Virus record (IMG/VR): IMGVR_UViG_3300022744_000001
Location: 2,022-66,021 of that record
Direction: 5' to 3' (one strand)
From: a virus
Length of the DNA: 64,000 nt
Of this stretch, positions 584 through 51,189 are shown piece by piece. The position numbers and the translations under genes are program-made. The notes under the pieces are model-generated. The model was not told where the DNA came from. It ran no database searches and was given only the letters and a program-made list of their open reading frames with translations. How positions within the stretch are numbered: the first letter of the stretch is position 1; every line of letters begins with the position of its first letter.

Positions 584-589
584 AGAAAA

Positions 590-666: not shown

Positions 667-668
667 AT

Positions 669-744: not shown

Positions 745-749
745 AAACT

Positions 750-824: not shown

Positions 825-830
825 ATAAAT

Positions 831-907: not shown

Positions 908-931
908 AAAATCTGGTGTAACTTCCGGGGC

Positions 932-1261: not shown

Positions 1262-1619
1262 GAGGTACCTAGCCGGGTTCGAGCAAACCATCGAACGGCT
1301 CCCCGGCATCCTCGACCGCTGGGAGAGCATCGAAGACATGCTCTGCGGCGAGTACATCGACCAGCTCGAATGGATGCTCGACGTCCGGGAAGACGTCCTC
1401 AACCTCGCCGTGGAGCAAGGCCAGGGCACCCCGGTTCGTGCCCGCATGGACCGAATCAACGCCGGTCTAGGGCGCCTCAGCATCCGGATCAAAGAGGTCA
1501 TGGGCGTCGATGTTCTCGAGACCCTGACTCCAGAGTTGGAGCCCGCAGTGGGAATCGAACCCACAGCCTCCTGTTTACGAAACAGGTGCTCAACCGTTGA
1601 GCTATACGGGCGAAAGTAA
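1245..1619 (+). CDS. hypothetical acidic protein
   Basis: ATG 1245 lies 17 nt upstream of the upstream gene's stop codon, so the two ORFs overlap (...GGATGAATGTCTCGATTGA). 124 aa. The 3' ~80 nt overlap tRNA-Thr on the opposite strand, so the true C-terminus is uncertain. Confidence 0.45.
   Translation: MNVSIERYLAGFEQTIERLPGILDRWESIEDMLCGEYIDQLEWMLDVREDVLNLAVEQGQGTPVRARMDRINAGLGRLSIRIKEVMGVDVLETLTPELEPAVGIEPTASCLRNRCSTVELYGRK
1537..1611 (-). tRNA. tRNA-Thr (anticodon CGU)
   Basis: 75 nt. Acceptor GCCCGUA/UGCGGGC, D-arm GCUC-AACGGUU-GAGC, anticodon arm CCUGU-UUCGUAA-ACAGG, T-arm GUGGG-UUCGAUU-CCCAC, UCCA end. Confidence 0.85.
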
Positions 1620-1641
1620 CAGGGGCACTCGTACCCCTGTT
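1618..1641. terminator. hairpin between convergent genes
   Basis: AACAGGGG-cactcgta-CCCCTGTT, an 8-bp perfect stem between the + ORF ending at 1619 and the - ORF ending at 1646. Confidence 0.4.
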
Positions 1642-1645
1642 GAAA

Positions 1646-2623
1646 TCAGAAGTTGTCCGAAACGACAACCCAGAAGTCGCTGGCCAACTGGGTGTTCTTC
1701 GCGTAGGCGTAGCTCATCCAGAAGTACCCAGCGAGGCCCCAGTTGACGCCCCACGAGTTGCGAACGAGGAATGCACCCGTGGTGCCGTCGGGCATCTTCT
1801 TGGCGTCGTCGTAACCGACGAGCGCGACAGCATGACCGCCCTGCAAGTGTTCCGTGGGACCCGGCAAGCCAAGAAGCGCTTTCTTGGCCATGTCTGCGGT
1901 CATGAAATAATCGTAAACTTGGAACCCAAATCCAACGAGATACCCCATCGCCAACGTGGACTTCATCGTGGCGATGTCCCCGTCCGCGATCGAGTGGTAG
2001 CTCGTGATCAGCTTCGTAGCTGCCTTGGCCCAGAGGTCCGGGGTTGGGTTGACCGTGAACTTCTGGATGTTGTAAGGCCAGCTGGCCTCGTCCAAAATCC
2101 CGTACTTGACTCCGGTCTTGATGGCATCACGAATCGTGGCGCCCGAGTCTTCGTTGACGGTACCTTCGATCTTACGGGTCGCGTAATACTCAAAGAGCCG
2201 CGACACCTGGGTGAACTTCGGGGCGGGAGTCGGGGCCGGGGTCGGCGTGGGAGCCGGAGCCGGGTTGGACACCGCCACGTTGGTCGTGAACGTGACCGAA
2301 CCGTCCGCATTGACCACGACGTTCGAGGTGGTCACCTTGGCGGTAGCCGCGGTAGCTGCCAGCTTCTTCGAAGTCGCCCCGCGGAGGTCGCTGCTCTCGA
2401 TGAGGGCCGCGAACATATTCGCAGTGCAGCTCCCGAGTTCACCTTGGTCCTCGATAGGGCTGCAAATGGGTCGATTGTCGTAAGAGGGTGGGGTAGCAAA
2501 GAAGTTGCCGGACTTGAGACGGTATCCCTCGTCTCGAGCGTCAACAAGCTGCTTCTTCCAACCACCAACATGAACCCTACGAGGGGTCCCGTCCGCATGA
2601 TGTGCAGTCTTGATCATGCACAT
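1646..2623 (-). CDS. papain-family (C1) cysteine peptidase with internal insert
   Basis: 325 aa. Motifs QGELGSCTAN (catalytic Cys), GGHAVALVGYD (His) and VRNSWGVNWGLAGYFW (Asn/Trp block). A ~70-aa insert after the Cys helix ends in PAPAPTPTPAPTPAP. Confidence 0.8.
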   Translation of the reverse strand: MCMIKTAHHADGTPRRVHVGGWKKQLVDARDEGYRLKSGNFFATPPSYDNRPICSPIEDQGELGSCTANMFAALIESSDLRGATSKKLAATAATAKVTTSNVVVNADGSVTFTTNVAVSNPAPAPTPTPAPTPAPKFTQVSRLFEYYATRKIEGTVNEDSGATIRDAIKTGVKYGILDEASWPYNIQKFTVNPTPDLWAKAATKLITSYHSIADGDIATMKSTLAMGYLVGFGFQVYDYFMTADMAKKALLGLPGPTEHLQGGHAVALVGYDDAKKMPDGTTGAFLVRNSWGVNWGLAGYFWMSYAYAKNTQLASDFWVVVSDNF

Positions 2624-2679
2624 ACGCGTGAATAAGAGGGTTAGTTAGCCCGTAAAACTAGCACTTTTGCTAGTCAAAA

Positions 2680-2754
2680 TGGCTCCGAGGGTAGGGGTCG
2701 AACCTACGACCATCCGGTTAACAGCCGGACGCTCTGCCACTGAGCTACCTCGGA
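2680..2754 (-). tRNA. tRNA-Asn (anticodon GUU)
   Basis: 75 nt. Acceptor UCCGAGG/CCUCGGA, D-arm GCUC-AGUGGCA-GAGC, anticodon arm UCCGG-CUGUUAA-CCGGA, T-arm GUAGG-UUCGACC-CCUAC, GCCA end. Confidence 0.9.
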
Positions 2755-2787
2755 ATAGACTCTGTCCCGCAGGACAGGCCGTAAAAA

Positions 2788-3429
2788 CTACCGTGGTTTT
2801 GCAGTGTCACCTTGGATGTAACCCTGCCGGTCAAGCTCTTCCACGGCGAAGTGGTTCTTCCACTTGATGACCAGGTGCTTCTGCCGGAACTCGTCAACGA
2901 CGATCCGATCCGAGAAAATCGTGACGACCGAGTCGTGGTAGCCGGTTCGGTCGAGAACCTCAACTTCCTGACCCTTGCGGTAGACACGAGAGGTCTGGTT
3001 TGACCACTCATACCCAGCAAGCTCGACTTCCTCTGGGCCGAGAAGCTCTTCCAGAGGCGGTTCGGAAGCCGTGACCGAGCTGGCGAACTTGTCGCTCTCT
3101 TTGGCGGAGTCCTCGACCTTCTTTTCGAAGTCGTGAGGGTCCATGGTCCGAATGTCGAACCACAACGACCGTGCGTGATTCAAGTTGTGGCCACCGGCTC
3201 GGCCGGAGCTGTACGAGACGTACACGGCCTGGGCCTTGAACCAAACCCGAATCGTCCCATCCGGAGACGTCGCGTGCGGCACCTTGAGCCCGTCAACCAC
3301 CTTCCAACGCTCCTTCTTCAAGTGCTCGAGGATTTCAGCTCGAGCTTCAAGGAAGGTCTTGCGCTTGGCGGTCTTGTCAGAGAAGGCCGCGGCGACGCGG
3401 AGGGCGATGTCGATGGGGTGGTTGGCCAT
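2788..3429 (-). CDS. hypothetical protein (213 aa)
   Basis: ATG ORF with TAG stop and coding-like composition. No family recognised. Confidence 0.55.
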   Translation of the reverse strand: MANHPIDIALRVAAAFSDKTAKRKTFLEARAEILEHLKKERWKVVDGLKVPHATSPDGTIRVWFKAQAVYVSYSSGRAGGHNLNHARSLWFDIRTMDPHDFEKKVEDSAKESDKFASSVTASEPPLEELLGPEEVELAGYEWSNQTSRVYRKGQEVEVLDRTGYHDSVVTIFSDRIVVDEFRQKHLVIKWKNHFAVEELDRQGYIQGDTAKPR

Positions 3430-3488
3430 GTGTTCCTCTCTCTACGGGCCGCACGAAAAGAGTAGCGCACCGAAGTGCACCCTCGAAA

Positions 3489-3573
3489 TGGCTCCAGGAG
3501 CAGGATTCGAACCTGCGATTGGGTTTCCCCGCGCGGTTAACAGCCGCGTGCACTACCACTATGCGACCCTGGA
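3489..3573 (-). tRNA. tRNA with anticodon GUU (Asn) and a long variable arm
   Basis: 85 nt. Acceptor UCCAGGG/UCCUGGA, D-arm GCAU-AGUGGUA-GUGC, anticodon arm CGCGG-CUGUUAA-CCGCG. The 15-nt variable region CGGGGAAACCCAAUC contains a GGG-AAA-CCC hairpin. T-arm GCAGG-UUCGAAU-CCUGC, GCCA end. Confidence 0.7.
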
Positions 3574-3576
3574 ATA

Positions 3577-3738
3577 GGTGCGCGCGAAGCGCACCGAAAT
3601 AAAATGGGTGGAGGATCCGAGGCCGGGCATCAAAGCACCACGACCGAAGGTTCGAAGCTCTGGCCGCAACACGACGCCAACAGACCTCGGACCCTCCACC
3701 AAGGAAGGCCCCATAAGAGCCTTCCCTCGTTTCTCTTG
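3577..3738 (+). other. structured non-coding segment inside the tRNA cluster
   Basis: Three elements: hairpin GGTGCGC-gcgaa-GCGCACC (3577-3595); a long-range inverted repeat pairing 3607-3622 with 3685-3700 (15 of 16 bp); then GGAAGGC-N9-GCCTTCC followed by CTCGTTTCTCTTG (3703-3738). ORFs in the track here look non-coding. Confidence 0.3.
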
Positions 3739-3951
3739 CCTCAAGCTAGAGTCGTATCGCCCGTCATGTCCCAGCCGCTGGAGCCCCTCAGTATAGTCGA
3801 GGGTCGATCACGCTCTGGCGCTACACGCATGGAGGTACCATGCGCGACGATTCACGCTCTAACCTGTCAGATTTTCAAAGACTTACCCGATGATTTCCAG
3901 CAAGAAGCCCGGAGGCTCGTACCCGAGGGTACCTGTGCACATCGTGTAACT

Positions 3952-4028
3952 TGGTGGGCCTGCGGGGACTCGAACCCCGAACCGTTCGCTTAAGAGGCGA
4001 CTGCACTGACCAGTTGTGCTACAGACCC
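3952..4028 (-). tRNA. tRNA-Lys (anticodon CUU)
   Basis: 77 nt. Acceptor GGGUCUG/CAGGCCC, D-arm GCAC-AACUGGUCA-GUGC, anticodon loop CUCUUAA, T-arm CGGGG-UUCGAGU-CCCCG, ACCA end. Confidence 0.85.
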
Positions 4029-4077
4029 GAAATTCGCTAATCTACGTCTTGGTACCTGTCCGGAGACAAGTGAAACT

Positions 4078-4152
4078 TGGTGAGGCCAGAGAGACTTGAA
4101 CTCTCAACCGTCGGGTTAAAAGCCCGCTGCACTACCATTGTGCTATGACCTC
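4078..4152 (-). tRNA. tRNA-Lys (anticodon UUU)
   Basis: 75 nt. Acceptor GAGGUCA/UGGCCUC, D-arm GCAC-AAUGGUA-GUGC, anticodon arm GCGGG-CUUUUAA-CCCGA, T-arm GAGAG-UUCAAGU-CUCUC, ACCA end. Confidence 0.85.
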
Positions 4153-4154
4153 AT

Positions 4155-4242
4155 TGGTGGAGGATGATGGAGTCGAACCACTCAGCCTTAATGACGCCTC
4201 GTTTACAGCGAGACCTGCCTCCCGGGGCACACGTCACCCTCC
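4155..4242 (-). tRNA. tRNA-Tyr (anticodon GUA), class II
   Basis: 88 nt. Acceptor GGAGGGU/AUCCUCC, anticodon arm UCUCG-CUGUAAA-CGAGG, long variable arm as in bacterial tRNA-Tyr, T-loop UUCGACU, ACCA end. Confidence 0.75.
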
Positions 4243-33051: not shown

Positions 33052-33729
33052 GTGGACAGTAGCGCAGAAGAGTTTGAGCAGATAGTGCGCGAGAGTTTAT
33101 CCGCTGCACAAGCCCTACGAAAACTGGACCGGGCTACCGTGGGGTCCAACTACGACTGGGTGCGTCGGGAGGTTCAACGGTTTGGGCTCGACACATCTCA
33201 CTGGGGAAGAGCTGGTGCTCGCAATACAACCCCGAACCTCGATGAGGTTTTCATTGAGAATGGTGCCTACTCAACAGGTCTTGTTAAGACGATCATTCTT
33301 CGTGAACGTTTACTCCCGGAGCTGTGTGCTGAGTGTGGATTAGGACCCTCCTGGAGGGGTAAGAAATTAGTCCTCCGCCTTGACCACAAAAACGGGAAAC
33401 GAAGTGATCACCGGCTCGGAAACTTGCGTTTTCTGTGTCCGAACTGCGACTCTCAAACAGAGACATTTTGCGGTCGCAACAAACGTCTCCCAGCCAAGCT
33501 GTGTAAATGCGGGGTGGCAATAGGGCAGCAGTCCGCAGCTTGCAGGTCGTGCACGGCAAAAAGCAGAAAACCAACAACGAAAATCGTTTGGCCTCCATTC
33601 GAGGAAGTGCAGGAAAGGGTCAAAAACACCTCCTTCCTTGCCACAGCCAAACATCTTGGTGTATCAGATAATGCAGTTCGGAAGTTTTTACGCTCCCGTG
33701 CCCGAGTGGTTGAAGGGGCAGGATTCTAA
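33052..33729 (+). CDS. HNH homing-endonuclease-like protein
   Basis: LRLDHKNGKRSDHRLGNLRFLCPNCDSQ is an HNH core. N-terminal ...GLDTSHWGR and C-terminal LGVSDNAVRKFL are HTH-like. Visibly lower GC than the flanks. The last 38 nt overlap the tRNA. Confidence 0.75.
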   Translation: MDSSAEEFEQIVRESLSAAQALRKLDRATVGSNYDWVRREVQRFGLDTSHWGRAGARNTTPNLDEVFIENGAYSTGLVKTIILRERLLPELCAECGLGPSWRGKKLVLRLDHKNGKRSDHRLGNLRFLCPNCDSQTETFCGRNKRLPAKLCKCGVAIGQQSAACRSCTAKSRKPTTKIVWPPFEEVQERVKNTSFLATAKHLGVSDNAVRKFLRSRARVVEGAGF

Positions 33730-33783
33730 ATCCTTGGGGCCGCAAGGCCCACGCCGCAGGTTCGAACCCTGCCGGGAGCGCCA
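33692..33783 (+). tRNA. suppressor tRNA, anticodon CUA (reads UAG), serine-type architecture
   Basis: 92 nt: GCUCCCG-UG-CCC-GAGUGGUUGAA-GGG-G-CAGGA-UUCUAAA-UCCUU-[20-nt variable arm G-GGGCC-GCAA-GGCCC-ACGCC]-GCAGG-UUCGAAC-CCUGC-CGGGAGC-G-CCA. The acceptor and T stems pair perfectly. Confidence 0.8.
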
Positions 33784-37841: not shown

Positions 37842-38243
37842 ATGCTCACAGCTATCCTGCTCCTCTGCATCGCCATCGTTGCCATGGTGGGCGTTCTGAT
37901 CTTCGAAACGGCCAACCTCCGAGGGGCGTTCCACGAGATGCAGAAAGCTCTCCAAGACGCCGTTCGAACGAGTGAAGAACTCGACGCGAAGGAGGACGAA
38001 GAGGGGGATCAGCTCGAGATTGAATGGCGAGACAGGTTCAACGAGATGCAAGACACGCTGAACCGCCTCGAGTTGAACCTGGGGCGGGTCAATCAGCGTG
38101 TGGCCCGGCTACAAGCCAAGTCAAAGGCGGGCAGCACGAAGAAGAAGGCCAAGTTCGACCTCATCCAAGGGGGCCAGAAGAACCCCCAAGAGGAGCGTCC
38201 GCAGGTGATTCAGCTTCACCCTGAGCCTCGAGACCCAAGCTGA
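37842..38243 (+). CDS. membrane-anchored coiled-coil protein
   Basis: N-terminal TM segment MLTAILLLCIAIVAMVGVLIF followed by a charged helical region. Confidence 0.55.
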   Translation: MLTAILLLCIAIVAMVGVLIFETANLRGAFHEMQKALQDAVRTSEELDAKEDEEGDQLEIEWRDRFNEMQDTLNRLELNLGRVNQRVARLQAKSKAGSTKKKAKFDLIQGGQKNPQEERPQVIQLHPEPRDPS

Positions 38244-39036
38244 AAATCTTGCTCACTTGGGGGTTGCCGTAATCAGAATGCCCCGTGTAGACGGTGAGGT
38301 TTTCAAAATGCTTGTACTCCCCCGGTGAGTGCGTGTGCCCGCAGAGCACGGTGAACTTGACCTCGGGGAACAGGGACGCGACGTCCGCCAACATGGCGCC
38401 GAACGTGAGGTTCGTGAACCACGGGAGCCAGTTCTTGTCGGAGATGCGGTCCCGGTAAAAGCAGGACTCCCGAAAGGGCGGGATGTGCGTTGCAAAGAAA
38501 ACCTGCTTGTACTTCCGAGCCGCGGCGACGAGGTTCGGCCGAGCTTCCTCAGCCATTTGCTTGGCCACCTCCCTGCACTTTTCGATGTGCCCGTATCGCT
38601 CCTTGTCTCGAAACTCCTCGATGACCTTGAAGTCGTTCATGATGACGTTCGACCCTTCGGGGTCCCCCGAACGAGCGTCGTACCAACCCCCGTGGCCAAC
38701 GAGCGCGATTTCCGGAGTCAGCTCCACGACGCCCGCGGCGTTCAGCCAGGAGAGGTTCTTCACGGCTTGGCTGTCATGGAGAACCTGTGCGATCAGGCGA
38801 CCCTTCTCGAGAGAGCCGTTATAGAAGTCGTGGTTTCCGAGCACGAAATAAACGGGGATCTCAACCTTCGATGCGAACAAGACCAGGTTGAAGGCGAGTG
38901 AGGGGCACTCCGCGATATCCCCGGTCATCACGATGGCGTCCGCTTGGGTCAGTCTGCGAACGTACTTCGCGAACTTCGCGGTACCCGCGGGAGGTAGGAA
39001 ATTGAAATGGGGGTCCGTGATCCAGGCGAGGCGCAT
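38161..39036 (-). CDS. calcineurin-like metallophosphoesterase
   Basis: WITDPHFN, VMTGDIAE, VLGNHDF, GHGGW and LCGHTHSPG motifs. The 3' ~80 nt overlap the convergent gene. Confidence 0.8.
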   Translation of the reverse strand: MRLAWITDPHFNFLPPAGTAKFAKYVRRLTQADAIVMTGDIAECPSLAFNLVLFASKVEIPVYFVLGNHDFYNGSLEKGRLIAQVLHDSQAVKNLSWLNAAGVVELTPEIALVGHGGWYDARSGDPEGSNVIMNDFKVIEEFRDKERYGHIEKCREVAKQMAEEARPNLVAAARKYKQVFFATHIPPFRESCFYRDRISDKNWLPWFTNLTFGAMLADVASLFPEVKFTVLCGHTHSPGEYKHFENLTVYTGHSDYGNPQVSKIFSLGLEAQGEAESPADAPLGGSSGPLG

Positions 39037-40830: not shown

Positions 40831-41199
40831 TTGATGTCACAGGAAACAGCAATCGAGACCCGCCCTTGTGAACTGTGCAAGGGGAGCGGAAGAAGGACCG
40901 GAACCAACCACCCGTGCTTGGTTTGCGATGGGATCGCCAGATTCCCGTCTTTCGATTCGGAGCGCATCCTGGGGCTCATCTTGACCCAAGGCCGCCTTAC
41001 GTCCGAGATTCATGCGATGACCGAGGACGAGACCTTGAACAGTCGGGCCTTTTTCGTCTGGGCGACCATCAGGAAACTCAAAGGGGTGTCCGACCCCATG
41101 GAACAAGTCCACGCCGGGCTCGCCATTACAGGGGACCCCTTCCGTACGGAGCTGGAAACTTTGGCTGGAGAGCTTTACACGAAAGAGGTTGCGGCGTGA
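40831..41199 (+). CDS. hypothetical protein with CxxCxGxG-type zinc finger
   Basis: GAGGAG lies 8 nt upstream of the ATG. CELCKGSG...CLVCDG. Confidence 0.55.
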   Translation: MMSQETAIETRPCELCKGSGRRTGTNHPCLVCDGIARFPSFDSERILGLILTQGRLTSEIHAMTEDETLNSRAFFVWATIRKLKGVSDPMEQVHAGLAITGDPFRTELETLAGELYTKEVAA

Positions 41200-41840
41200 A
41201 CGCAGCACAGTACCTGGGCAAGCGGTGGGAGAAAACGTTGCAGGTGCTTCGGGTGCCTTCAGCCCCCGCCACCACGGCAATGATCTCAGAGATCCTTCAC
41301 CAGTACGCTGAGCCCGGCCGGGCCTACCACAACCTCGAGCACCTTCGCTTTTGCTTCACCGTGATAGACGACGTCATGGCGAAGCTCCCCGGCATCGGCG
41401 CCGTAGAACTCGCGCTCTGGTACCACGATTTCTTCTACGACACGCACGCTCAAGACAACGAGGAGCGAAGTGCTGCTCACGCTCGAGACCAACTCATTGG
41501 TTCTGGGTTCGGCCGCGGCTTCGCCAACCAAGTCGAAAACCTGATCCTCGCCACGAAGCACTCGAACGAGCCGAAGACACGGGAAGCCAAAGTCCTGCTC
41601 GACGTGGACATCTCCATTTTCAGCGCGACCACAGAAGAGTACGACGCCTACGAGACCGGGATTCGTCGCGAATACCACTGGGTCCCTGAAGAACAGTTCC
41701 GGGCCCGCCGTGTTGAAGTGCTCGAGCGCTTCCTGTCTCGGCAGTGGATTTATGCTACGCCCGAGTTCAGAAGCGGGCCGTACGAGACGCTCGCTCGAGC
41801 CAACCTCACGCGCGCCATTGCGGCACTGAAGGCCCCATGA
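41196..41840 (+). CDS. HD-domain-like metal-dependent phosphohydrolase (COG4339-like)
   Basis: GTG start overlaps the upstream stop (GTGA). AYHNLEHL...LALWYHDFFYD pattern. Confidence 0.55.
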   Translation: MNAAQYLGKRWEKTLQVLRVPSAPATTAMISEILHQYAEPGRAYHNLEHLRFCFTVIDDVMAKLPGIGAVELALWYHDFFYDTHAQDNEERSAAHARDQLIGSGFGRGFANQVENLILATKHSNEPKTREAKVLLDVDISIFSATTEEYDAYETGIRREYHWVPEEQFRARRVEVLERFLSRQWIYATPEFRSGPYETLARANLTRAIAALKAP

Positions 41841-41989
41841 ACAGCCCTTTGTTCAAGCACTCCGCGAAATACTGCACTCACTGCCAGAAAAACTCGAGGG
41901 AGCAGGTTCACTACCAGCGAGGCTTCAACAAGGGTGTGCACTGGCAATGCAAGATCTGTGGGAGAAAGTCCGTGCGTTGCTCTAAGTGA
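41837..41989 (+). CDS. small zinc-ribbon protein (50 aa)
   Basis: ATGA overlap with the upstream gene. CTHCQ...CKICG. Confidence 0.45.
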   Translation: MNSPLFKHSAKYCTHCQKNSREQVHYQRGFNKGVHWQCKICGRKSVRCSK

Positions 41990-43628
41990 ATCGGTGCCCG
42001 CCGGACTCCTTGGAGTCGTACATGGCGGCATCCGCGATCCGTACAAGGCTCTCAGGCTCACGCCCGTGCGTTGGGAACAAGGCCAGACCGATGCTGGCGC
42101 GAACCCCAACCTCTTCTCCGGAGGGCAGCTCGATAGGCTCCCCTACCAAGTTGAGGATCTTCGTCGCCACTGGGCCTGCATCGCCTTCTTGCGCAAGGTC
42201 GTCCAGCACAACGACGTACTCGTCGCCCCCTAGTCTGGCCACGACGTCGGTTCTTCGCACGCAAGCTCGGAGCCGGGCCGCGACCTCCTTGAGCACGATG
42301 TCTCCAGCGTCATGGCCGTGAGTGTCATTGACCTCTTTGAAGCCGTCGAGGTCGATGAACAGGACTGCGAGCTTGCTGTCGTACTGCTCTGCTCGAGCGA
42401 GCTTCGAAGCCAACGTGTTCATCAGCGTCGCCCGGTTCTGGAGCCCCGTGAGCGGGTCAGTATGGGCTGCTTTGATGAGGGCTGCCTCGGTCCTCTTTCG
42501 CTCAGTTACGTCACGGGCCACAACATAGAGCTTCCCCTCCACGTGAGCAGGGAAGTGCCAGGAGAGCCATCGCCACGTCCCATCTTTGCACCGGGCCCTG
42601 CACTCGAACTTCACCCCGTCGTAACCGCTGGCGAGCTTTGAGAGCTGCTCCTGCATGTCCATCCGGTCATCCGGGTGGAGCAGGTCGAAGATGGGGCGGC
42701 AAAGCAGCTCGTCCTCGGAGAAGCCCAGGACGCGAGTGAACGAGGGGTTCACTCGGATGAAGTAGCCGTCAAGCCGTGCGACACAGATGAGGTCAAGGCT
42801 CACGGTGAAGAGTCGATCGCGCTCTTCCTCGGCTCGTTTGCGGTCCGTGACGTCGGTGGCGGCCCAAAGGTAGCCAACGAGGTCTCCGGTGTCTTCTCGC
42901 ATGACCACCGTCTTCGCGCTGACCCAGAGAATGGATCCGTCGGGCCGAAGAAATCGGAACTCATGCTCGAACGAGAGGCCGAGGTCTGTGAGCCGCCGCC
43001 ACGCCATCATGACCGCTCGTCGGTCGTCTGGGTGCACAGCTCGAGTCCAGCCTTGCCCGTAGCACTCCTCGAGAGACAGGCCGCACATCTCCGACCAGGT
43101 TCGGTTCACAAACCCGCACCGGCCATGCTCGTTGGTCATGAGGGTGCCCGCGGGGGTCTCGTGGATGAACGCTCGGAGCTTGCTCTCGCTCTCGCGAAGG
43201 GCCCGCTCCATGTTCTTGGTGGCAGAGATGTCCCGGAAGGTGAGTAGAGCCCCGTGCGGTTTCTGCCCAGGCTTCTGAAGCGGGCGCGTGTTCGTGCTGA
43301 CCCAAACGGCAGTCCCATTCGGGCGAGCAACCTCCAGCACAACACTCGAGAGGGCGATGCCCGTGCGCAGGGACACTACGGCCGGGTGGTCATCCTTCGA
43401 AAGGAGAGACCCGTCCTCGCATGAAATACGAGGCGCATCGGACATATACTTTCCGATCAGGTCCTTCTCTGTAACCCCGAGGATCCGGGCCGCACAAGGG
43501 TTCGCCTCAACGATCTGTTCGGTTGCATCGATGACGAAGACCCCCTCCTCCATTGATTCGATCAAGGAGCGGTAGAATGCCTCATCTAACTGCAATCCCG
43601 CACTTTTGGTTACGTCTGAGTTCGGCAT
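41982..43628 (-). CDS. PAS-PAS-PAS-GGDEF diguanylate cyclase
   Basis: 548 aa. Three PAS-like repeats, each ending in a ...DVT(D/E)RK-type linker. The GGDEF domain has LFIDLDGFKEVNDTHGH, the active site RLGGDEYVV, and an RxxD (RRTD) 5 residues upstream. Confidence 0.85.
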   Translation of the reverse strand: MPNSDVTKSAGLQLDEAFYRSLIESMEEGVFVIDATEQIVEANPCAARILGVTEKDLIGKYMSDAPRISCEDGSLLSKDDHPAVVSLRTGIALSSVVLEVARPNGTAVWVSTNTRPLQKPGQKPHGALLTFRDISATKNMERALRESESKLRAFIHETPAGTLMTNEHGRCGFVNRTWSEMCGLSLEECYGQGWTRAVHPDDRRAVMMAWRRLTDLGLSFEHEFRFLRPDGSILWVSAKTVVMREDTGDLVGYLWAATDVTDRKRAEEERDRLFTVSLDLICVARLDGYFIRVNPSFTRVLGFSEDELLCRPIFDLLHPDDRMDMQEQLSKLASGYDGVKFECRARCKDGTWRWLSWHFPAHVEGKLYVVARDVTERKRTEAALIKAAHTDPLTGLQNRATLMNTLASKLARAEQYDSKLAVLFIDLDGFKEVNDTHGHDAGDIVLKEVAARLRACVRRTDVVARLGGDEYVVVLDDLAQEGDAGPVATKILNLVGEPIELPSGEEVGVRASIGLALFPTHGREPESLVRIADAAMYDSKESGGHRFT

Positions 43629-43679: not shown

Positions 43680-44135
43680 CTAGGCGGCGGTTTCCCACAT
43701 TAGAGTGTAGCGGAGCCGATAGCCTTTTCCGCGGACGTATTCGATCTGCCCTTCCTGAACTTGCGCTCGTAGCGCTTGCCGGAGGTAGTGCAGGAAGACT
43801 TCCCGATGTTCTACAGCTAACGTCCCGTCTTGAACGGCCCGATCAACCAAGGTTTTGGCCTCGTACGAGGGGTACGTGCCATCCGTTGCCTTGCGCCGCA
43901 GGAAAGCGATGAAACGCCACGCTTTTTGGTACGCTTGCGTCTTGATTTTTTCGCGGGACTGTCGAGGAGAAGGGCGGGGAGCGCGAGATTCCGCGTAGGA
44001 GGCGAACATAAGCGACTCGAGCACCTTATGTTCCTTGATAAGTTTCACAGCTGCTACCGCTGCGTTACGCCCCTCTTCCCCGCTGGTGGATTCGGTCAGG
44101 TCGATAAGCTTCTGGATCTTTTCCAGGATGTTCAC
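43680..44135 (-). CDS. hypothetical protein, DUF2786-like N-terminus
   Basis: ILEKIQKLIDLTESTSGEEGRNAAVAAVKLIKEH resembles the DUF2786 helix pair. Assigned from recall only. Confidence 0.45.
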   Translation of the reverse strand: MNILEKIQKLIDLTESTSGEEGRNAAVAAVKLIKEHKVLESLMFASYAESRAPRPSPRQSREKIKTQAYQKAWRFIAFLRRKATDGTYPSYEAKTLVDRAVQDGTLAVEHREVFLHYLRQALRAQVQEGQIEYVRGKGYRLRYTLMWETAA

Positions 44136-47835: not shown

Positions 47836-48612
47836 ATGCGCCAGGACATGCCCAAAGTCGTTGTTGAACGTGGGCGCACCAACGCCACGTACAGCTACCG
47901 CGACCACCGCTCCTCTCGGAAAAAGGCAGAGGATGACCTCCCTCGCAACGAGGGGATGCGTCGTCCTTATGGCTGGGAGAAGAAGCAGCTGAACGAGACG
48001 CTCGCACCATTGCGTCGGTTCCTGCGTAGCCGAGTCGGGCAGCCGTGGGACAAGGTCTACTCCGAAATCAGCGAGAACCTGAAAGCCTCGAATCCGGTTC
48101 AGCAGCACGTCCGCGACCACCTGAAGGACTACGTGTTCTTCACCGTCGTTGTGAAGAACGGGCGTTACGAGGGACCTCGTCGTGGTGACCTCGGCTGGAC
48201 CGTTCGCCTGCGCAAGGGTGACCTTTACGTGAACGAGGCTGGCATCCTCTGCCAGCTCCGCCATGACGGGCCTAAGAAGGGCGACTCCCGGTACAAGTCG
48301 TACGTGGTCTCGGCCATCACTGAGAAGGCGGGCGGGAGCCGCCACCTTCACCGGACGAAGACGACCTACTTCCTGGCCCGGAAGAAGGACTATGCACCCG
48401 CGAGCGGTGAGGTCGTTGTCGAAACCATCGAAGCTGTGTCCTTCGAATCGGCCCGGGACCTCTTCAACGAGCGCTACCGCAAAAACCCCGTGGTGGCGGA
48501 GAGCTGGGTGTCCTCGGTCAACTGTCGCTGCACGAAGTGCATCCAATACCAGTCCGAGAGCCACCAGATGAGGCAAGCTCGCGAGCGAGAGAAGCTCAGC
48601 GCAGCTGGATAG
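47836..48612 (+). CDS. hypothetical basic protein (258 aa)
   Basis: ATG ORF. No family recognised. Confidence 0.6.
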   Translation: MRQDMPKVVVERGRTNATYSYRDHRSSRKKAEDDLPRNEGMRRPYGWEKKQLNETLAPLRRFLRSRVGQPWDKVYSEISENLKASNPVQQHVRDHLKDYVFFTVVVKNGRYEGPRRGDLGWTVRLRKGDLYVNEAGILCQLRHDGPKKGDSRYKSYVVSAITEKAGGSRHLHRTKTTYFLARKKDYAPASGEVVVETIEAVSFESARDLFNERYRKNPVVAESWVSSVNCRCTKCIQYQSESHQMRQAREREKLSAAG

Positions 48613-49153
48613 GGGCAGCCTTCTTTGTCGTGAACGCCTGCTCGGTTTCCTCGTTCGTCACGATGCCGATGTTCTTGATCTTGTCCGTGGGGAAGCCGAA
48701 GAAGCCCGAGAACATGGCGCCCATGCCTGTCTCGTATTGGTCTCGGTAGGCTTGCTGGCGCGCGATCAAGGACTTCTGGTCAGCTTCGAAGCTCTGGCGG
48801 CCCGACTGGATTTGCAGCTGGATTCGCTCATACATCTTCGAATCGAAGTTCGGGTTGTGCTCCTTGATGAACTGCACCAGGGCCTTTGACCCATCCGCCC
48901 CGTAGCGGCTTTGGATGGCCCCGTCGTAGACCTTCTTGAGGTCGTCCGTGTACATGGACGGGACCTGAGCCATCTCTTTGAGGGTGGAGAAGTAGTTCGA
49001 GTAGTTGTTCTTGTCTTGGTCGTACTGGGCAACGAGCCCGTTCTCCATGCGCACGCACGTGTTGTAGAAGCCGAACAGAACGAACGCGAAAATGATCACC
49101 ACCAGGAAAAGCCCAGCGATGCCTGCCAACAGAAACTTCATAGCCGTAGACAT
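48596..49153 (-). CDS. LemA-like membrane protein
   Basis: N-terminal TM LLAGIAGLFLVVIIFAFVLFGF followed by YNTCVRMENGLVAQ, and a C-terminal ...QQAYRDQYETGMGAMFSGFFGFP, parallel to the LemA layout. Confidence 0.5.
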   Translation of the reverse strand: MSTAMKFLLAGIAGLFLVVIIFAFVLFGFYNTCVRMENGLVAQYDQDKNNYSNYFSTLKEMAQVPSMYTDDLKKVYDGAIQSRYGADGSKALVQFIKEHNPNFDSKMYERIQLQIQSGRQSFEADQKSLIARQQAYRDQYETGMGAMFSGFFGFPTDKIKNIGIVTNEETEQAFTTKKAAPIQLR

Positions 49154-49165
49154 TGTCTCTCCTCT

Positions 49166-50056
49166 TCAACCCTCAAGGGTTTGGTAGAACTTTTCGACGT
49201 CGAGTGCGATGGTGACCGGGTAGGGCCCTGGCTCGCCCACGAACGTGAAGTCCGTATCGGGGCGGGTCCCCCACTCACCCTTTTCTCGGTAGGGGAAGCC
49301 TCGGACCCAAGTAGCGGCCGACGGGTTGATAGCCAGCGCAACTGCGATGACGTCATGCAGGGCTTTGCCGTTCGGGTGCTTCTGAAAGTAGGTGAGCATC
49401 CCAAGCTTCAAGAGGTCGAGTCCTGGGTGAGCCCCGTCCGGAAGCTGAACGCTCTGGTCGTAGATGATCCCGTGGCACACGTTCTTGGTGACAAATCGCT
49501 TGGTAGGGATGGCTTCAGTTGAGATCAGGGCTTTGGCCGCGGGAACGTCCCCGTTGAGGTTGAACGTCGGGCAGGTGATGCGGCCTTCGAATTTGGGAAG
49601 GCGGAATTCCGGCGGCACCACGTTGTCGCCTGCAAACCCGCCCTGGCAGGTCCAATTCTGGAAGAACGGTTTGGCTCCTCGAGCTTGGAGGGCCTCGTGG
49701 ACATTGGTCAGGGCGGCCCCCGTGACAAGGTGGGTTGCGCCCCCATCGAGAGCCCCGTGGATGACCTCGACCGCGGTCCCGTCTGGGATGCAAGGACCAA
49801 AGCCCCCCAACCAGTCACGGTAGAACCCAGCCACTCGAGGCGCTTCCTTCTTGGGTGTCCCAGCCCCTACAAGCACGTCTGGGCGGCCCAGAAGCGCCAG
49901 GACGTGCTTGGCCAACCCGACCTGGTCGTGACCTCCAGGGAAGACTGTGATGGCCCGCAAATCCACTCGAGGGTGGGTTGCGAGGATGCAGAGGGCCATG
50001 GCGTCATCGGGGTCGCCGGTCTCCATGTCGAAGACCATCTTGATTCGTTTGGCCAT
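49166..50056 (-). CDS. inosine/uridine-preferring nucleoside hydrolase family protein
   Basis: The N-terminal metal-binding motif FDMETGDPDDAMAL fits DxDxxxDD. ATG 50056 overlaps the upstream stop (ATGA). Confidence 0.7.
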   Translation of the reverse strand: MAKRIKMVFDMETGDPDDAMALCILATHPRVDLRAITVFPGGHDQVGLAKHVLALLGRPDVLVGAGTPKKEAPRVAGFYRDWLGGFGPCIPDGTAVEVIHGALDGGATHLVTGAALTNVHEALQARGAKPFFQNWTCQGGFAGDNVVPPEFRLPKFEGRITCPTFNLNGDVPAAKALISTEAIPTKRFVTKNVCHGIIYDQSVQLPDGAHPGLDLLKLGMLTYFQKHPNGKALHDVIAVALAINPSAATWVRGFPYREKGEWGTRPDTDFTFVGEPGPYPVTIALDVEKFYQTLEG

Positions 50057-51189
50057 CACCGGTGCCTCTTGTGTGTGGGCTTCTCGTCCCCGAACACGTC
50101 GTGGTAGTGGAACACGAACATCAGCCCAATCGAGATCGCTAACCCGATGATCACGGACACGACCCACTGGGTTGTTGTGGGTACAACGCTCGCGGCGAGG
50201 TACTCGAAGTCCTTCATGGGCTTGCGTTGGTAGTTCTGAATCACATGAGAACGAAAGAGCCCGAGGATGGGTTCGCGCTCGAGAGGGAGCCCTTGAACCG
50301 CGGCCTCCAGCTCGACTTCGAAGTTCTTCCTCACGGTCCAAGCCATGACCTCGGCCCACACGATCTGGTTCGTTTGGTCGAGACCTAGAACCAGCACCGC
50401 GTCATTTTTCTTCGCTCCAACCCAGAACTCTTCCAGGGCGTAGAAGAAGTCACGCGGCTTGTGGGACACGACCACGATGAGGTTGACCTGTTTTTTCGGC
50501 CCCACCTCGCCGTTGATTTTCTCGAGCTGCCGGTTCCACTCGTCCGCATCAGGCAAGGCCACCCCCACCTGCACGAGCCTCTTCAAGTGCCAGTAGTCGT
50601 AGACCTGGTCCGGGTAAGCAGGCAGGACATCCTGATACTTCTCCGTGAGCCCTTGGTGGCGGAATACGGAGTCGGGAGAGGCTTTGACGTAGTTCTCGTA
50701 CGAGTGGGTCCGAGCTACCGGCTCGCCCACCTTCGTGGCACCCCAACGGGGAGGCGTGATCGTGCCTTGCCGGTCGATACGGGAGATCTCGAATTGGCCG
50801 AGTGACGTGTAGACATCCCAGTCGAAATCATACGGGTGGTCGTAACACGTCTCGTAGCAGGTGTCATAGCAACGGTCGTAGCAGTAGCTGGGGTTCTTGG
50901 CCGTGCCTCCGCACTTGCGTCGGTTGCAGTTGTGCGGGTTGCATTTGTACGGGTGGCATCGGTAGCTGTGTTCGCAGCTCACCCGCTCTTGCTTTTTGCC
51001 GGTCACTGTACCGTTGAGGACTTCAACGTCGCCGGTGTCCTGGTAGTAAACGATCGCGGCCGAGCCGCCCGCTACCATGGCTTGAGCGGCCAAGTGGAGC
51101 GCGAATTCCTTCCACGTGATGCCGTGGAAGAAAGCGCGGCCAACGATAGCCGGGAGAATGGCGACTGCGAATAGAAGTAGGAAGACCAT
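50056..51189 (-). CDS. membrane protein with Cys/Tyr-rich ectodomain
   Basis: TM segments at both ends. Cluster CEHSYRCHPYKCNPHNCNRRKCGG...YCYDRCYDTCYETCYDHPYD. No family recognised. Confidence 0.6.
   Translation of the reverse strand: MVFLLLFAVAILPAIVGRAFFHGITWKEFALHLAAQAMVAGGSAAIVYYQDTGDVEVLNGTVTGKKQERVSCEHSYRCHPYKCNPHNCNRRKCGGTAKNPSYCYDRCYDTCYETCYDHPYDFDWDVYTSLGQFEISRIDRQGTITPPRWGATKVGEPVARTHSYENYVKASPDSVFRHQGLTEKYQDVLPAYPDQVYDYWHLKRLVQVGVALPDADEWNRQLEKINGEVGPKKQVNLIVVVSHKPRDFFYALEEFWVGAKKNDAVLVLGLDQTNQIVWAEVMAWTVRKNFEVELEAAVQGLPLEREPILGLFRSHVIQNYQRKPMKDFEYLAASVVPTTTQWVVSVIIGLAISIGLMFVFHYHDVFGDEKPTHKRHR

What the first reader, a model, noticed from the sequence alone, without database searches (positions are those of the whole stretch)
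41982..43628. Triple-PAS GGDEF diguanylate cyclase with intact active site and I-site in a phage-like context
Seen: the 548-aa ORF has three PAS-like modules and a GGDEF domain with an intact GGDEY active site. An RRTD (RxxD) lies five residues upstream, the canonical autoinhibitory I-site spacing. Neighbours are small zinc-ribbon and HD-like phage-style genes, not a bacterial signalling locus. Established: GGDEF domains synthesise c-di-GMP, which controls motility, biofilm and surface structures, and some GGDEF-like enzymes make other cyclic dinucleotides. Inference: a mobile-element-encoded, signal-gated cyclase could reprogramme host surface or receptor expression (superinfection exclusion or host retention), or saturate and poison cyclic-nucleotide-based immunity.
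Basis: partly seen in the sequence, partly recalled or inferred. Interest (0 to 1): 0.55.

Follow-up and report, generated by a model that had tools for sequence, protein, structure and literature searches.

The report
Sensor diguanylate cyclase on a megaphage
A roughly 450-kb phage-like genome carries an apparently working, sensor-controlled enzyme for the bacterial "settle down and build biofilm" signal c-di-GMP, and relatives of this element have kept the gene for a long time, so the virus probably uses it to reprogram its host.

Summary
ORF 41982-43628 (-) encodes a 548-aa protein with three PAS domains and a GGDEF domain. It has an RRTD I-site five residues before a GGDEY active-site motif, and all other checked catalytic residues are present except the PleD-R446-equivalent Arg. 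The context is phage-like, not chromosomal. The exact protein sits on a 448-kb metagenomic contig that is rich in ORFans. That contig has an 11-tRNA array plus a tRNA(CTA), and gene families shared with about 500 large myoviruses. No capsid, terminase or portal gene was found in the 84 kb I could inspect.

Eight orthologues (48-74 % identity) exist. The four whose context I fetched, two on 470-kb and 128-kb contigs, occupy the same syntenic position. They diverge in step with the backbone genes, all keep GGDEY and RxxD, and are under purifying selection (dN/dS about 0.12). Their sister group is a chromosomal 3xPAS-GGDEF of a Myxococcaceae MAG (about 42 % identity), which suggests an ancient host capture.

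The same contig encodes a second intact cyclase (GAF-GGEEF). The gene convergent with the DGC folds like a class-I cyclic-nucleotide phosphodiesterase.

Verdict: a new member of a known enzyme family in a still uncharacterised role, as a conserved megaphage host-signalling gene. Phage GGDEF genes have been annotated before but not studied. What the enzyme does to the host remains inference.

The parts
41982..43628 (-). PAS-PAS-PAS-GGDEF diguanylate cyclase gene (548 aa). The stop codon is TAG.
   Evidence: ORF. Pfam. NCBIfam. PDB sequence matches. AF2 model. Foldseek. TAG stop inferred.
43206..43580 (-). PAS domain 1 (aa 17-141)
   Evidence: Pfam PAS_8 and PAS_7. PAS fold in the model. Mean identity within the element clade is 0.49.
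42834..43181 (-). PAS domain 2 (aa 150-265, S-box type with an HPDD motif)
   Evidence: Pfam PAS, PAS_3, PAS_4 and PAS_9. TIGR00229. Clade identity is 0.53.
42504..42806 (-). PAS domain 3 (aa 275-375)
   Evidence: Pfam PAS_11. PDB 8px4, the PAS domain of a diguanylate cyclase, E=1.5e-21. Clade identity is 0.60.
41994..42467 (-). GGDEF catalytic domain (aa 388-545)
   Evidence: Pfam PF00990, E=7.8e-45. 5m3c E=7e-37. 4iob rmsd 0.9 A. Invariant D426, K431, N434, D443, R465, E470, K490 and K540.
42246..42257 (-). Primary I-site RxxD (R458-R-T-D461)
   Evidence: Read directly from the sequence. R458 and D461 are invariant in all 16 aligned sequences.
42216..42230 (-). Active-site motif GGDEY (aa 467-471)
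   Evidence: GGDEY is present in all 9 element-clade proteins, whereas the Myxococcaceae group has GGDEF. Among 120 homologues, 11 have GGDEY and 106 have GGDEF.
43680..44135 (-). DUF2786 gene (151 aa), 51 nt upstream on the same strand. Probably co-transcribed with the cyclase.
   Evidence: Pfam DUF2786. The same arrangement occurs in L003, with tblastn 49 % and 32 % in L171 and L003. No terminator-like site lies between the two genes.
41196..41840 (+). Convergent HD-superfamily hydrolase (COG4339 family, 214 aa) with a class-I cyclic-nucleotide-PDE-like fold. It holds this position in all related elements.
41837..41989 (+). 50-aa CxxC...CxxC zinc-ribbon ORF. Its 3' end overlaps the 3' end of the cyclase gene.
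   Evidence: Translation. Called as a 50-aa gene in L002.
38161..39036 (-). Calcineurin-like metallophosphoesterase, a conserved syntenic neighbour
   Evidence: Pfam Metallophos. phrog_1649 metallo-phosphoesterase appears in the pooled window-ORF scan, not assigned to a specific ORF. Identity to L171, L003, L004 and L170 is 60, 50, 54 and 51 %.
48596..51189 (-). Phage-typical block: phrog_1383 'virion structural protein' (48596-49153), a nucleoside hydrolase (49166-50056), and a phrog_2087 protein (50056-51189)
   Evidence: tblastn finds homologues in 482 and 504 phage records, including XacN1, Atu_ph07 and Lak.
507..4239 (-). Array of 11 tRNA genes, a context marker for a huge phage
   Evidence: ARAGORN. 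Rfam.
33692..33783 (+). tRNA with anticodon CTA (amber-suppressor type)
   Evidence: ARAGORN. Rfam tRNA at 52 bits.

Best explanation
The gene encodes a soluble, cytoplasmic, sensor-gated diguanylate cyclase that belongs to the genome of a very large phage (contig of at least 448 kb). SHOWN: the domain architecture, the intact A-site and I-site residues, the phage-like context, and syntenic conservation with purifying selection across a clade of related huge elements. Also shown: a sister relationship to a chromosomal Myxococcaceae 3xPAS-GGDEF protein, and a second intact GAF-GGDEF cyclase on the same contig. INFERRED mechanism: the protein dimerises through its PAS domains and the helical PAS3-GGDEF linker. 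An unknown cue sensed by the PAS modules (redox state, gas or a small ligand) sets the register of the linker and brings two GTP-loaded GGDEF domains together to make c-di-GMP. Product binding at RxxD and K490 caps the output. INFERRED role: during infection the phage raises host c-di-GMP on its own terms. This would push the host, probably a Myxococcota-like bacterium, towards exopolysaccharide production and low motility, or would alter its surface structures. Possible benefits to the phage are holding the infected cell among susceptible neighbours, changing receptor display (superinfection exclusion), or blocking a developmental escape route. The gene was captured from a host lineage long ago and has been inherited vertically with the phage backbone since then.
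For: Architecture and motifs. All 9 clade members keep D426, N434, D443, R465, GGDE, K540, RxxD and K490. Purifying selection: dN/dS 0.12 for window versus L171, with all four domains 49-64 % identical within the clade. Element context: the contig is 448,224 bp. Only 8 of 33 neighbouring genes have Pfam hits, against 14 of 18 on the Myxococcaceae chromosomal contig. There are 12 tRNAs. phrog_1383 and phrog_2087 homologues occur in about 500 large myoviruses, including 385-540-kb phages. The window also has dCTP deaminase, peptide deformylase, NUDIX, PTH2 and DNA methyltransferase/helicase genes. Synteny holds in four other contigs, including a 470-kb one. DGC identity (71/59/56/49 %) equals or exceeds that of backbone neighbours. 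Phylogeny: element clade 100/100, Myxococcaceae group 100/100, the two as sisters 85/100. GC content is 0.59, matching the element, against 0.72 for the Myxococcaceae contig. The second cyclase P0121 has RHSD-x5-GGEEF, with an orthologue on a contig of the same length (75,547 bp) and source as the one carrying DGC orthologue P0003, presumably the same contig. c-di-GMP controls EPS and development in Myxococcus (PMC4877007). c-di-GMP-dependent glycans can be phage receptors (PMC8669472).
Against: No major capsid, terminase or portal gene was found in the 84 kb inspected, so the 'phage' label rests on indirect markers. The motif is GGDEY, not GGDEF, and no paper in the library reports on that variant. 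The Arg equivalent to PleD R446 (KxxGR) is replaced ('KESGGHR'), although at least about 40 % of the wider homologues where that segment could be parsed also lack an Arg or Lys there. The host is not identified. The Myxococcaceae link rests on one source name, the gene context and a tree, and the element's GC is 12 points lower. Expression timing, the PAS ligand and the physiological effect are all unobserved. No c-di-GMP effector, EAL or HD-GYP gene and no c-di-GMP riboswitch was found in the window.
Confidence: 0.68

Rival explanations
1. The element is not a phage but another kind of giant extrachromosomal element (a megaplasmid or an unclassified element). The cyclase would then be an ordinary accessory signalling gene of that replicon.
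For: No capsid, terminase or portal gene in the 84 kb inspected. No orthologous clade in IMG/VR. No nucleotide match to phage or plasmid collections. DNA methyltransferase/helicase proteins such as the 1266-aa ORF also occur on plasmids.
Against: There are no replication, partition or conjugation Pfam hits among 63 ORFs. An 11-tRNA array plus a suppressor-type tRNA is present. phrog_1383 ('virion structural protein', E=5e-53) and phrog_2087 (E=6e-101) co-occur in about 500 large myoviruses. The gene content is ORFan-dense with small genes. A 1000-aa fibre-like Gly-rich repeat protein is present. A relative carries a weak AcrVA2-like hit.
Confidence: 0.12
2. The GGDEF domain is not an active c-di-GMP synthase. 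It would be a degenerate or receptor domain, or it would have altered chemistry because of GGDEY and the missing R446-equivalent Arg. The protein would then act as a c-di-GMP- or GTP-binding sensor or scaffold.
For: F-to-Y in the signature motif is fixed across the whole clade and rare elsewhere (11 of 120). 'KxxGGHR' replaces the canonical 'KxxGRN'. No published data on GGDEY were found.
Against: Every residue known to bind metal, base or phosphate except R446 is invariant. Tyr for Phe is a conservative change. Degenerate GGDEF domains normally lose the GGDE acidic residues. Retention of an I-site makes sense mainly for an active, product-inhibited enzyme. The modelled GGDEF domain is nearly identical to active YfiN (rmsd 0.9 A). 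The KxxG[RK] position is variable in many homologues.
Confidence: 0.12
3. The c-di-GMP made is read mainly by the phage itself. Two sensor cyclases (PAS x3 and GAF), together with the adjacent PDE-like HD hydrolase, would form a virus-owned second-messenger circuit. That circuit would time phage decisions such as replication versus dormancy or lysis timing, rather than reprogramming host behaviour.
For: Two differently gated intact cyclases lie on one contig. A conserved neighbouring hydrolase has a class-I cyclic-nucleotide PDE fold and an intact metal site. The I-site suggests tightly regulated output.
Against: No c-di-GMP receptor (PilZ or similar) and no riboswitch was detected in the window. 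The HD gene is convergent, not co-transcribed, and the whole region is syntenic, so adjacency alone is weak evidence. The HD protein's substrate is unknown, and its family is widespread in bacteria without GGDEF partners.
Confidence: 0.12
4. The window is ordinary bacterial chromosome or a mis-assembled host fragment, and the cyclase is a host gene.
For: PAS-GGDEF proteins are among the commonest bacterial signalling proteins, with 6635 homologues at E<=1e-20.
Against: No housekeeping genes appear in 84 kb. About 75 % of neighbouring genes have no Pfam hit, against about 22 % on the Myxococcaceae contig. Phage-family genes and the tRNA array are present. Five independent assemblies share the same synteny. 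The best cellular homologue is only 42 % identical.
Confidence: 0.03
5. The enzyme is an anti-defence device that floods the cell with a cyclic dinucleotide to jam CBASS-type or other nucleotide-based immunity.
For: Phages are known to manipulate immune nucleotide signals, and jumbo phages carry several PDE families predicted to do so (PMC7824862; PMC12657218).
Against: The Asp that specifies guanine is invariant, so the predicted product is c-di-GMP, not cGAMP or another immune signal. I-site feedback limits output, which works against 'saturation'. From my own knowledge, c-di-GMP activates rather than blocks bacterial TIR-STING effectors.
Confidence: 0.03

Closest known systems
Bacterial multi-PAS-GGDEF sensor diguanylate cyclases. 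Nearest are the chromosomal 3xPAS-GGDEF of a Myxococcaceae MAG (P0012 group). Structurally closest are the P. aeruginosa YfiN/TpbB and PA0575 GGDEF domains.
   Same: Same end-to-end architecture as P0012 (about 42 % identity, 95 % coverage). The catalytic and I-site residues are the same. The GGDEF fold is almost superposable on YfiN.
   Different: It is encoded on a huge phage-like element rather than a chromosome. It has GGDEY instead of GGDEF and a 'GGHR' C-terminal tail. It lacks the roughly 30-aa N-terminal extension of the Myxococcaceae proteins. No NCBIfam equivalog model reaches its cutoff.
GGDEF genes already annotated in phage genomes, for example gp350 of the 499-kb Bacillus megaphage G ('probable diguanylate cyclase DgcQ'), and GGDEF ORFs on IMG/VR viral contigs
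   Same: These are phage- or virus-borne GGDEF genes, some on very large genomes. Of the 80 best IMG/VR loci, 67 show GGDEF and 62 show RxxD. One (L075, a 164-kb contig) sits inside a tRNA array (PMC12484599).
   Different: None is an orthologue (at most 48 % identity, on the GGDEF domain only). None found in the library has been studied functionally. This one is shown to be conserved and syntenic across a clade, and to be accompanied by a second cyclase.
Myxococcus xanthus DmxB (developmental diguanylate cyclase)
   Same: It is a c-di-GMP synthase with an I-site. Its output drives exopolysaccharide synthesis through EpsI/Nla24, which gives a plausible host read-out for a phage-made signal (PMC4877007).
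   Different: DmxB is a host receiver-GGDEF protein induced by starvation. The phage protein is PAS-gated, and no orthology was tested or is claimed.
Other phage strategies that act on c-di-GMP or cyclic-nucleotide signalling: phage peptides that bind YfiN, and jumbo-phage HD-GYP and other phosphodiesterases
   Same: The phage intervenes in the host's second-messenger network (PMC8085984; PMC7824862).
   Different: Those act by inhibiting a host cyclase or degrading nucleotides. Here the phage brings its own regulated synthase, or two.

Membership tests
GGDEF diguanylate cyclase (Pfam PF00990 / TIGR00254) | Full-length match to the family model above the curated cutoff | tested here: met
   PF00990 scores 153 bits against 23.8, covering profile positions 1-160 of 161. 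TIGR00254 scores 151 bits against 37.4.
GGDEF diguanylate cyclase (Pfam PF00990 / TIGR00254) | Active-site GG[D/E]EF motif with both acidic residues | tested here: met
   G467-G-D-E-Y471. GGDE is intact and the last residue is Tyr instead of Phe. This is fixed in all 9 clade members. Whether Tyr is tolerated was not tested and no literature was found.
GGDEF diguanylate cyclase (Pfam PF00990 / TIGR00254) | Metal-, base- and phosphate-binding residues (PleD D327, N335, D344, R366, E370, K442; numbering from my own knowledge) | tested here: met
   D426, N434, D443, R465, E470 and K540 are invariant in the 16-sequence alignment. They align with the GTP-bound PA0575 structure 5m3c.
GGDEF diguanylate cyclase (Pfam PF00990 / TIGR00254) | Second phosphate-binding Arg four residues after the Lys (PleD R446, 'KxxGR') | tested here: not met
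   The sequence is K540-E-S-G-G-H-R, with Gly at K+4, and 'GGH' is conserved in the clade. The position is not universal: GR or GK was counted in roughly 60 of the ~100 homologues where this segment could be parsed, and GG[HYSN] occurs in about 20.
GGDEF diguanylate cyclase (Pfam PF00990 / TIGR00254) | Allosteric I-site RxxD five residues upstream of GGDEF | tested here: met
   R458-R-T-D461 followed by five residues. R458 and D461 are invariant. K490 occupies the position of PleD R390.
GGDEF diguanylate cyclase (Pfam PF00990 / TIGR00254) | Synthesis of c-di-GMP from GTP | not testable with these tools
   Requires an enzyme assay or LC-MS.
Hypr-GGDEF (cGAMP-producing GGDEF enzymes) | Ser or Thr replacing the guanine-specifying Asp (PleD D344 / GacA S348; my own knowledge) | tested here: not met
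   D443 is an invariant Asp in all 16 sequences.
Huge (jumbo/mega) tailed phage | Genome of at least 200 kb | tested here: met
   The exact protein lies on a 448,224-bp contig, and an orthologue lies on a 469,776-bp contig. Completeness is unknown.
Huge (jumbo/mega) tailed phage | Virion hallmark genes (HK97-fold major capsid, large terminase, portal) | tested here: inconclusive
   None was found in the 64-kb window plus about 17 kb of flanking sequence. The single 'portal' PHROG hit is really a NUDIX domain match.
Huge (jumbo/mega) tailed phage | Phage-specific gene families and typical accessory content (tRNA arrays, ORFan density) | tested here: met
   phrog_1383 'virion structural protein' E=5e-53 and phrog_2087 E=6e-101, found in 482 and 504 phage records. 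There are 12 tRNAs. 25 of 33 neighbouring genes have no Pfam hit.
HD-GYP c-di-GMP phosphodiesterase (candidate identity of the HD neighbour 41196-41840) | HD plus GYP motifs, and a match to the HD/HD_5 models | tested here: not met
   [not shown]
Class-I 3',5'-cyclic-nucleotide phosphodiesterase-like HD hydrolase (HD neighbour) | PDE catalytic-domain fold with the YHNxxH...HD...D metal site | tested here: met
   [not shown]

The most novel reading that the evidence does not exclude
A lineage of roughly 450-470-kb megaphages, possibly infecting Myxococcota, carries its own cyclic-nucleotide signalling toolkit. The toolkit has two intact sensor diguanylate cyclases with different input domains (3xPAS-GGDEY and GAF-GGEEF), plus a conserved neighbouring hydrolase with a class-I cyclic-nucleotide-PDE fold. 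The virus would thereby install a virus-controlled, environmentally gated second-messenger circuit in the infected cell. The circuit would steer host social behaviour (EPS, motility, development) or time the phage's own programme.
Probability: 0.25. Interest if true: 0.7.

Novelty: new member of a known kind. Interest (0 to 1): 0.5.

Why it matters
c-di-GMP is the main bacterial switch between motile and sessile or biofilm life. Phages are known to tamper with it indirectly, but no phage-encoded diguanylate cyclase has been characterised in the literature I could search. This gene is not an accidental passenger. It is conserved, syntenic and under purifying selection across a clade of huge phage-like genomes, and it comes with a second cyclase. 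That makes it a good experimental entry point to two questions. What do megaphages do with their many 'cellular' signalling genes? Can a virus take sensory control of host social behaviour? The gene also offers a host-prediction clue (Myxococcota). A side result is a fold-level annotation, class-I PDE-like, for the widespread and uncharacterised COG4339 HD family.

Tried and rejected
1. Megablast of 25 kb around the gene against the phage and plasmid collections gave no match.
2. tblastn of the three largest unannotated ORFs against phages gave only a partial hit to a 485-kb uncultured phage, LR745208.1. That phage shares just a methyltransferase with the window and is not a relative.
3. An IMG/VR scan with the orthologue alignment found many GGDEF genes but no orthologue of this clade.
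It returned only full-length relatives of about 27-35 % identity (locally up to about 45 % on shorter segments) from many phyla, so it neither found the clade nor recovered the Myxococcaceae group.
5. A metagenome-contig scan with the second cyclase found nothing close.
6. I extended the view 10 kb past the 3' end and about 7 kb past the 5' end of the window. One look-up failed because the start codon was called differently. The others gave no capsid, terminase or portal gene.
7. TAG recoding, suggested by the tRNA(CTA), is rejected for this window. TAG ends 17 of 61 confident genes.
8. The 'portal protein' PHROG hit is a NUDIX-domain match and is not evidence of a portal.
9. 'GGGGACAG' occurs upstream of both the DUF2786 and DGC start codons, but it is not enriched (7 matches against 4.6 expected).
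10. Promoter and terminator scans around the gene were at or below shuffle expectation.
11. The PAS domains have no close solved homologue that reveals a cofactor. There is no LOV or haem signature I could assert.
12. A literature search for 'GGDEY' found nothing relevant.
13. dN/dS for the more distant pairs is unusable because synonymous sites are saturated.
Full report

Yes. An ATG-initiated ORF of 548 codons occupies 41982-43628 on the minus strand. Pfam finds three PAS stretches and a complete GGDEF domain (aa 388-545, E=7.8e-45, 153 bits against a cutoff of 23.8). NCBIfam's PAS S-box and GGDEF domain models pass their cutoffs, but no equivalog model does.

The sequence reads R458-R-T-D461-V-V-A-R-L-G467-G-D-E-Y471.

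The best solved relatives are active or GTP-bound GGDEF domains: PA0575 (5m3c, E=7e-37), YfiN/TpbB, PleD and DosC. An AlphaFold2 model built on 16 homologues has a mean pLDDT of 86.9. It shows three PAS folds, a helical linker and a GGDEF fold. The GGDEF part superposes on YfiN (4iob) at 0.9 A over 149 columns, and whole-chain hits are multi-PAS signalling proteins such as DosP. The protein has no long hydrophobic segment, so it is cytoplasmic.

**2. Is the enzyme likely to be active?**

I aligned it with its 15 closest homologues. The residues that in PleD bind metal, guanine and phosphates (numbering from my own knowledge: D327, N335, D344, R366, E370, K442) are all invariant here: D426, N434, D443, R465, E470 and K540. 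The I-site R458 and D461 are invariant too, and so is K490, which occupies the position of PleD R390. D443 is Asp, so the Ser/Thr signature of cGAMP-making Hypr-GGDEFs is absent.

Two deviations exist:
- The last motif residue is Tyr (GGDEY).
- The canonical 'KxxGR' Arg is replaced, giving 'KESGGHR'.

GGDEY is fixed in the whole element clade but rare elsewhere (11 of 120 homologues, against 106 with GGDEF). The KxxG[RK] position is variable among homologues. No paper in the searchable library mentions GGDEY in a cyclase. I regard activity as likely but unproven.

**3. What is the surrounding DNA?**

The exact protein is recorded on a 448,224-bp ENA metagenome contig and on a 49.8-kb Logan contig.

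- **Composition and tRNAs.** The window is about 60 % GC throughout. It holds 11 clustered tRNA genes (507-4239) plus a tRNA with anticodon CTA at 33692-33783.
- **ORFan density.** Only 8 of the 33 genes called around the cyclase have any Pfam hit. By contrast, 14 of 18 have hits on the Myxococcaceae chromosomal contig.
- **Recognisable functions** are those typical of very large phages. They include dCTP deaminase, peptide deformylase, two NUDIX proteins, PTH2, a 5'-nucleotidase, a nucleoside hydrolase, ADP-ribosylglycohydrolase, a papain-like protease, an N6/N4 DNA methyltransferase and a 1266-aa methyltransferase-helicase.
- **Phage-family genes.** The product of 48596-49153 matches phrog_1383 ('virion structural protein', head and packaging; E=5e-53). 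The product of 50056-51189 matches phrog_2087 (E=6e-101). By tblastn these two occur in 482 and 504 phage records with nearly the same taxonomic spread. The records are Ackermannviridae, T4-like Aeromonas phages, Xanthomonas XacN1 (385 kb), Agrobacterium Atu_ph07 (490 kb) and Prevotella Lak megaphage (540 kb).
- **A fibre-like protein.** A 1000-aa Gly/Ser/Thr-rich repeat protein with globular ends (24190-27192) looks like a fibre or adhesin.
- **What is missing.** I found no capsid, terminase or portal gene in the window or in about 17 kb of flanking sequence. The one 'portal' PHROG hit is a NUDIX-domain match. No plasmid replication or conjugation genes and no housekeeping genes were seen either.

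I therefore call the element a huge phage with about 80 % confidence. About 365 kb of the contig was beyond my reach.

**4. Is the gene a stray passenger?**

No. The protein database contains eight full-length orthologues at 74-48 % identity. After those comes a distinct group of seven proteins at 41-43 %, and then generic PAS-GGDEF proteins at 34 % or less.

I fetched four orthologue contexts: contigs of 470 kb, 128 kb, 75.5 kb and 43.8 kb from different samples. All show the same neighbourhood: Zn-ribbon/Top1, NT5C, the phrog_2087 protein, the DGC, a convergent HD protein, Metallophos, PTH2 and ADP-ribosylglycohydrolase.

By tblastn the cyclase is 71, 59, 56 and 49 % identical across these four. 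That is as conserved as, or more conserved than, its backbone neighbours: Metallophos at 60/50/54/51 %, phrog_2087 at 59/49/45 %, and phrog_1383 at 61/54/49 %. So it has diverged along with the genome.

For the closest pair, dN/dS is 0.12, with dS near saturation. All four domains are conserved within the clade (PAS1 0.49, PAS2 0.53, PAS3 0.60, GGDEF 0.64 mean identity). The sensors are therefore under constraint as well as the catalytic domain.

**5. Where did it come from?**

In a neighbour-joining tree of 70 homologues (292 columns, 100 bootstraps):
- the element clade is monophyletic (100),
- the 41-43 % group is monophyletic (100),
- the two are sisters (85).

One member of the sister group, P0012, is named by NCBI as coming from a Myxococcaceae MAG. 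It lies among RNase J, a Ser/Thr kinase-FGE-sulfatase protein, an MFS transporter, an aminotransferase and transglutaminase-type genes on a 72 %-GC contig. That is an ordinary chromosomal setting.

The architecture is the same end to end, so a whole-gene capture from a Myxococcota-like host is the simplest history. Two things show the capture is old rather than recent. The gene's GC content equals that of the element (about 0.60), and the element clade itself spans 48-74 % identity. The host assignment remains a hypothesis.

**6. Additional c-di-GMP-related content**

About 9 kb beyond the window's 3' end the same contig encodes a 346-aa GAF-GGDEF protein. Its full sequence, P0121, has RHSD-x5-GGEEF and a canonical KQRGRN. 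A 61 % orthologue lies on a Logan contig of the same length (75,547 bp) as the one that carries DGC orthologue P0003, presumably the same contig. The lineage therefore carries at least two intact, differently gated cyclases.

The gene convergent with the DGC (41196-41840) is conserved at that position in all relatives.
- It belongs to the widespread, uncharacterised COG4339 'predicted HD-superfamily phosphohydrolase' family.
- It has no Pfam, NCBIfam or PDB sequence hit.
- Its invariant Y44, H45, H77, D78, D136 and D138, with H49 at least 90 % conserved, correspond to the PDE 'YHNxxH...HD...D' metal site (the motif is from my own knowledge).

Whether this protein acts on c-di-GMP, on pGpG or on immune cyclic nucleotides is unknown. 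The entire region is syntenic, so adjacency is weak evidence for a functional link.

No EAL, HD-GYP or PilZ gene and no c-di-GMP riboswitch is present in the window.

**7. Mechanism**

Shown: an intact PAS3-GGDEF protein with an I-site, conserved on a phage-like genome.

Inferred from established knowledge of PAS-GGDEF enzymes (for example the LOV- and phytochrome-activated cyclases that appear among the fold hits):
- The protein forms a dimer through its PAS domains and the helical linker.
- A signal sensed by the PAS domains shifts the linker and brings two GTP-loaded GGDEF domains together, producing c-di-GMP.
- Product binding at RxxD and K490 limits output.

The DUF2786 gene lies 51 nt upstream on the same strand with no terminator between the two, so it is probably co-transcribed with the DGC.

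The biological pay-off is also inferred. In Myxococcus xanthus, c-di-GMP drives exopolysaccharide synthesis and is required for development (PMC4877007). In E. coli, a c-di-GMP-dependent glycan is the phage N4 receptor (PMC8669472). A phage-controlled rise in c-di-GMP could therefore immobilise the infected cell among susceptible kin, remodel surface receptors, or interfere with developmental escape. None of this is tested.

**8. Comparison with what is known**

As an enzyme this is a regular member of the GGDEF family, and its closest relatives are bacterial multi-PAS cyclases. Phage-borne GGDEF genes are not unprecedented:
- Megaphage G lists gp350 as a 'probable diguanylate cyclase' (PMC12484599).
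- tblastn finds GGDEF ORFs in 137 phage records.
- The IMG/VR scan found 361 GGDEF-encoding stretches. Among the best 80 loci, 67 show GGDEF and 62 show RxxD, and one lies within a tRNA array on a 164-kb contig.

The literature I could search describes phages interfering with c-di-GMP indirectly, through YfiN-binding peptides (PMC8085984) and jumbo-phage HD-GYP phosphodiesterases (PMC7824862). It contains no functional study of a phage cyclase.

What is new here:
- the demonstration that the gene is a long-retained, selected component of a megaphage lineage,
- the clade-specific GGDEY signature,
- the second cyclase,
- the PDE-like neighbour.

**9. Verdict**

This is a new member of a known kind, of moderate interest (0.5). 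The main uncertainties are formal proof that the element is a phage, the catalytic competence of the GGDEY variant, the identity of the host, and the physiological effect.

Noticed in passing
L088:1-716 (-), which is contig k141_47206 at about 399847-400884, roughly 9.1 kb beyond the window's 3' end: A second diguanylate cyclase on the same contig. It is a 346-aa GAF-GGDEF protein (P0121) with RHSD-x5-GGEEF and a canonical KQRGRN. A 61 % orthologue (P0122) is on a Logan contig of the same 75,547-bp length as the one carrying the DGC orthologue P0003, presumably the same contig.
   Followed up: yes
[not shown]
   Followed up: partly
window 507-4239 (-) and 33692-33783 (+): There is an array of 11 tRNA genes (Arg x2, Ala, Glu x2, Thr, Asn x2, Lys x2, Tyr) and a separate tRNA with anticodon CTA (amber-suppressor type; ARAGORN calls it 'Pyl'). 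TAG still ends 17 of 61 genes in this window, including the cyclase gene itself. Any recoding would therefore have to apply elsewhere in the genome or late in infection.
   Followed up: partly
window 24190-27192 (-): A 1000-aa ORF with atypical codon-position GC (0.56/0.64/0.59). It encodes a Gly/Ser/Thr/Ala-rich repeat region (about aa 360-880, with repeats like 'GGSITFTGGSGG') between globular N- and C-terminal domains, so it looks like a fibre or adhesin. It has no Pfam, PHROG or phage tblastn match.
   Followed up: partly
window 7612-16881 (-): A minus-strand block of large genes. It contains a 1266-aa DUF6094 methyltransferase fused to an SNF2/ResIII-type helicase (phrog_62), a 273-aa ORF, a 550-aa N6/N4 DNA methyltransferase, and 464-aa and 355-aa ORFans. 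This may be a DNA-modification or anti-restriction module. The methyltransferase is the only protein clearly shared with the 485-kb uncultured phage LR745208.1.
   Followed up: partly
window 16881-18729, with repeats at 18161-18248: A stretch of about 1.8 kb with no convincing ORF. It contains a perfect 18-bp tandem repeat (2.9 copies) followed by a 15-bp repeat. Function unknown.
   Followed up: no
window 32208-33047 (+): A 279-aa protein matching phrog_10081 'transposase' (E=1e-17). It lies just upstream of the tRNA(CTA) and may be a mobile insertion within the element.
   Followed up: no
window 38161-39036 (-): A calcineurin-like metallophosphoesterase conserved in all related elements (50-60 % identity), about 3 kb from the cyclase. 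Enzymes of this superfamily include cyclic-nucleotide phosphodiesterases, but the substrate here is unknown.
   Followed up: no
L171:17647-19002 (+); L003, L004 and L170 upstream of the cyclase: Related elements carry a 451-aa protein with a weak AcrVA2-like (anti-CRISPR) Pfam hit, and an SspB-like ClpXP adaptor gene. The SspB gene is absent from the window's syntenic region.
   Followed up: no
L075 (IMGVR_UViG_3300035181_002522, 164 kb), GGDEF ORF at about 9916-10831: An unrelated 308-aa GGDEF protein (RGSD...GGDEF) lies inside an array of 8 tRNA genes on a large viral contig. This is an independent case of a cyclase in a jumbo-phage-like setting. A 543-kb UViG (L062) also encodes a PAS-GGDEF protein.
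   Followed up: partly
window 57913-59031 (-) and 1646-2623 (-): A strong DUF4419 protein (E=4e-75) and a papain-family (Peptidase_C1) cysteine protease. Both are unusual cargo for a phage genome.
   Followed up: no
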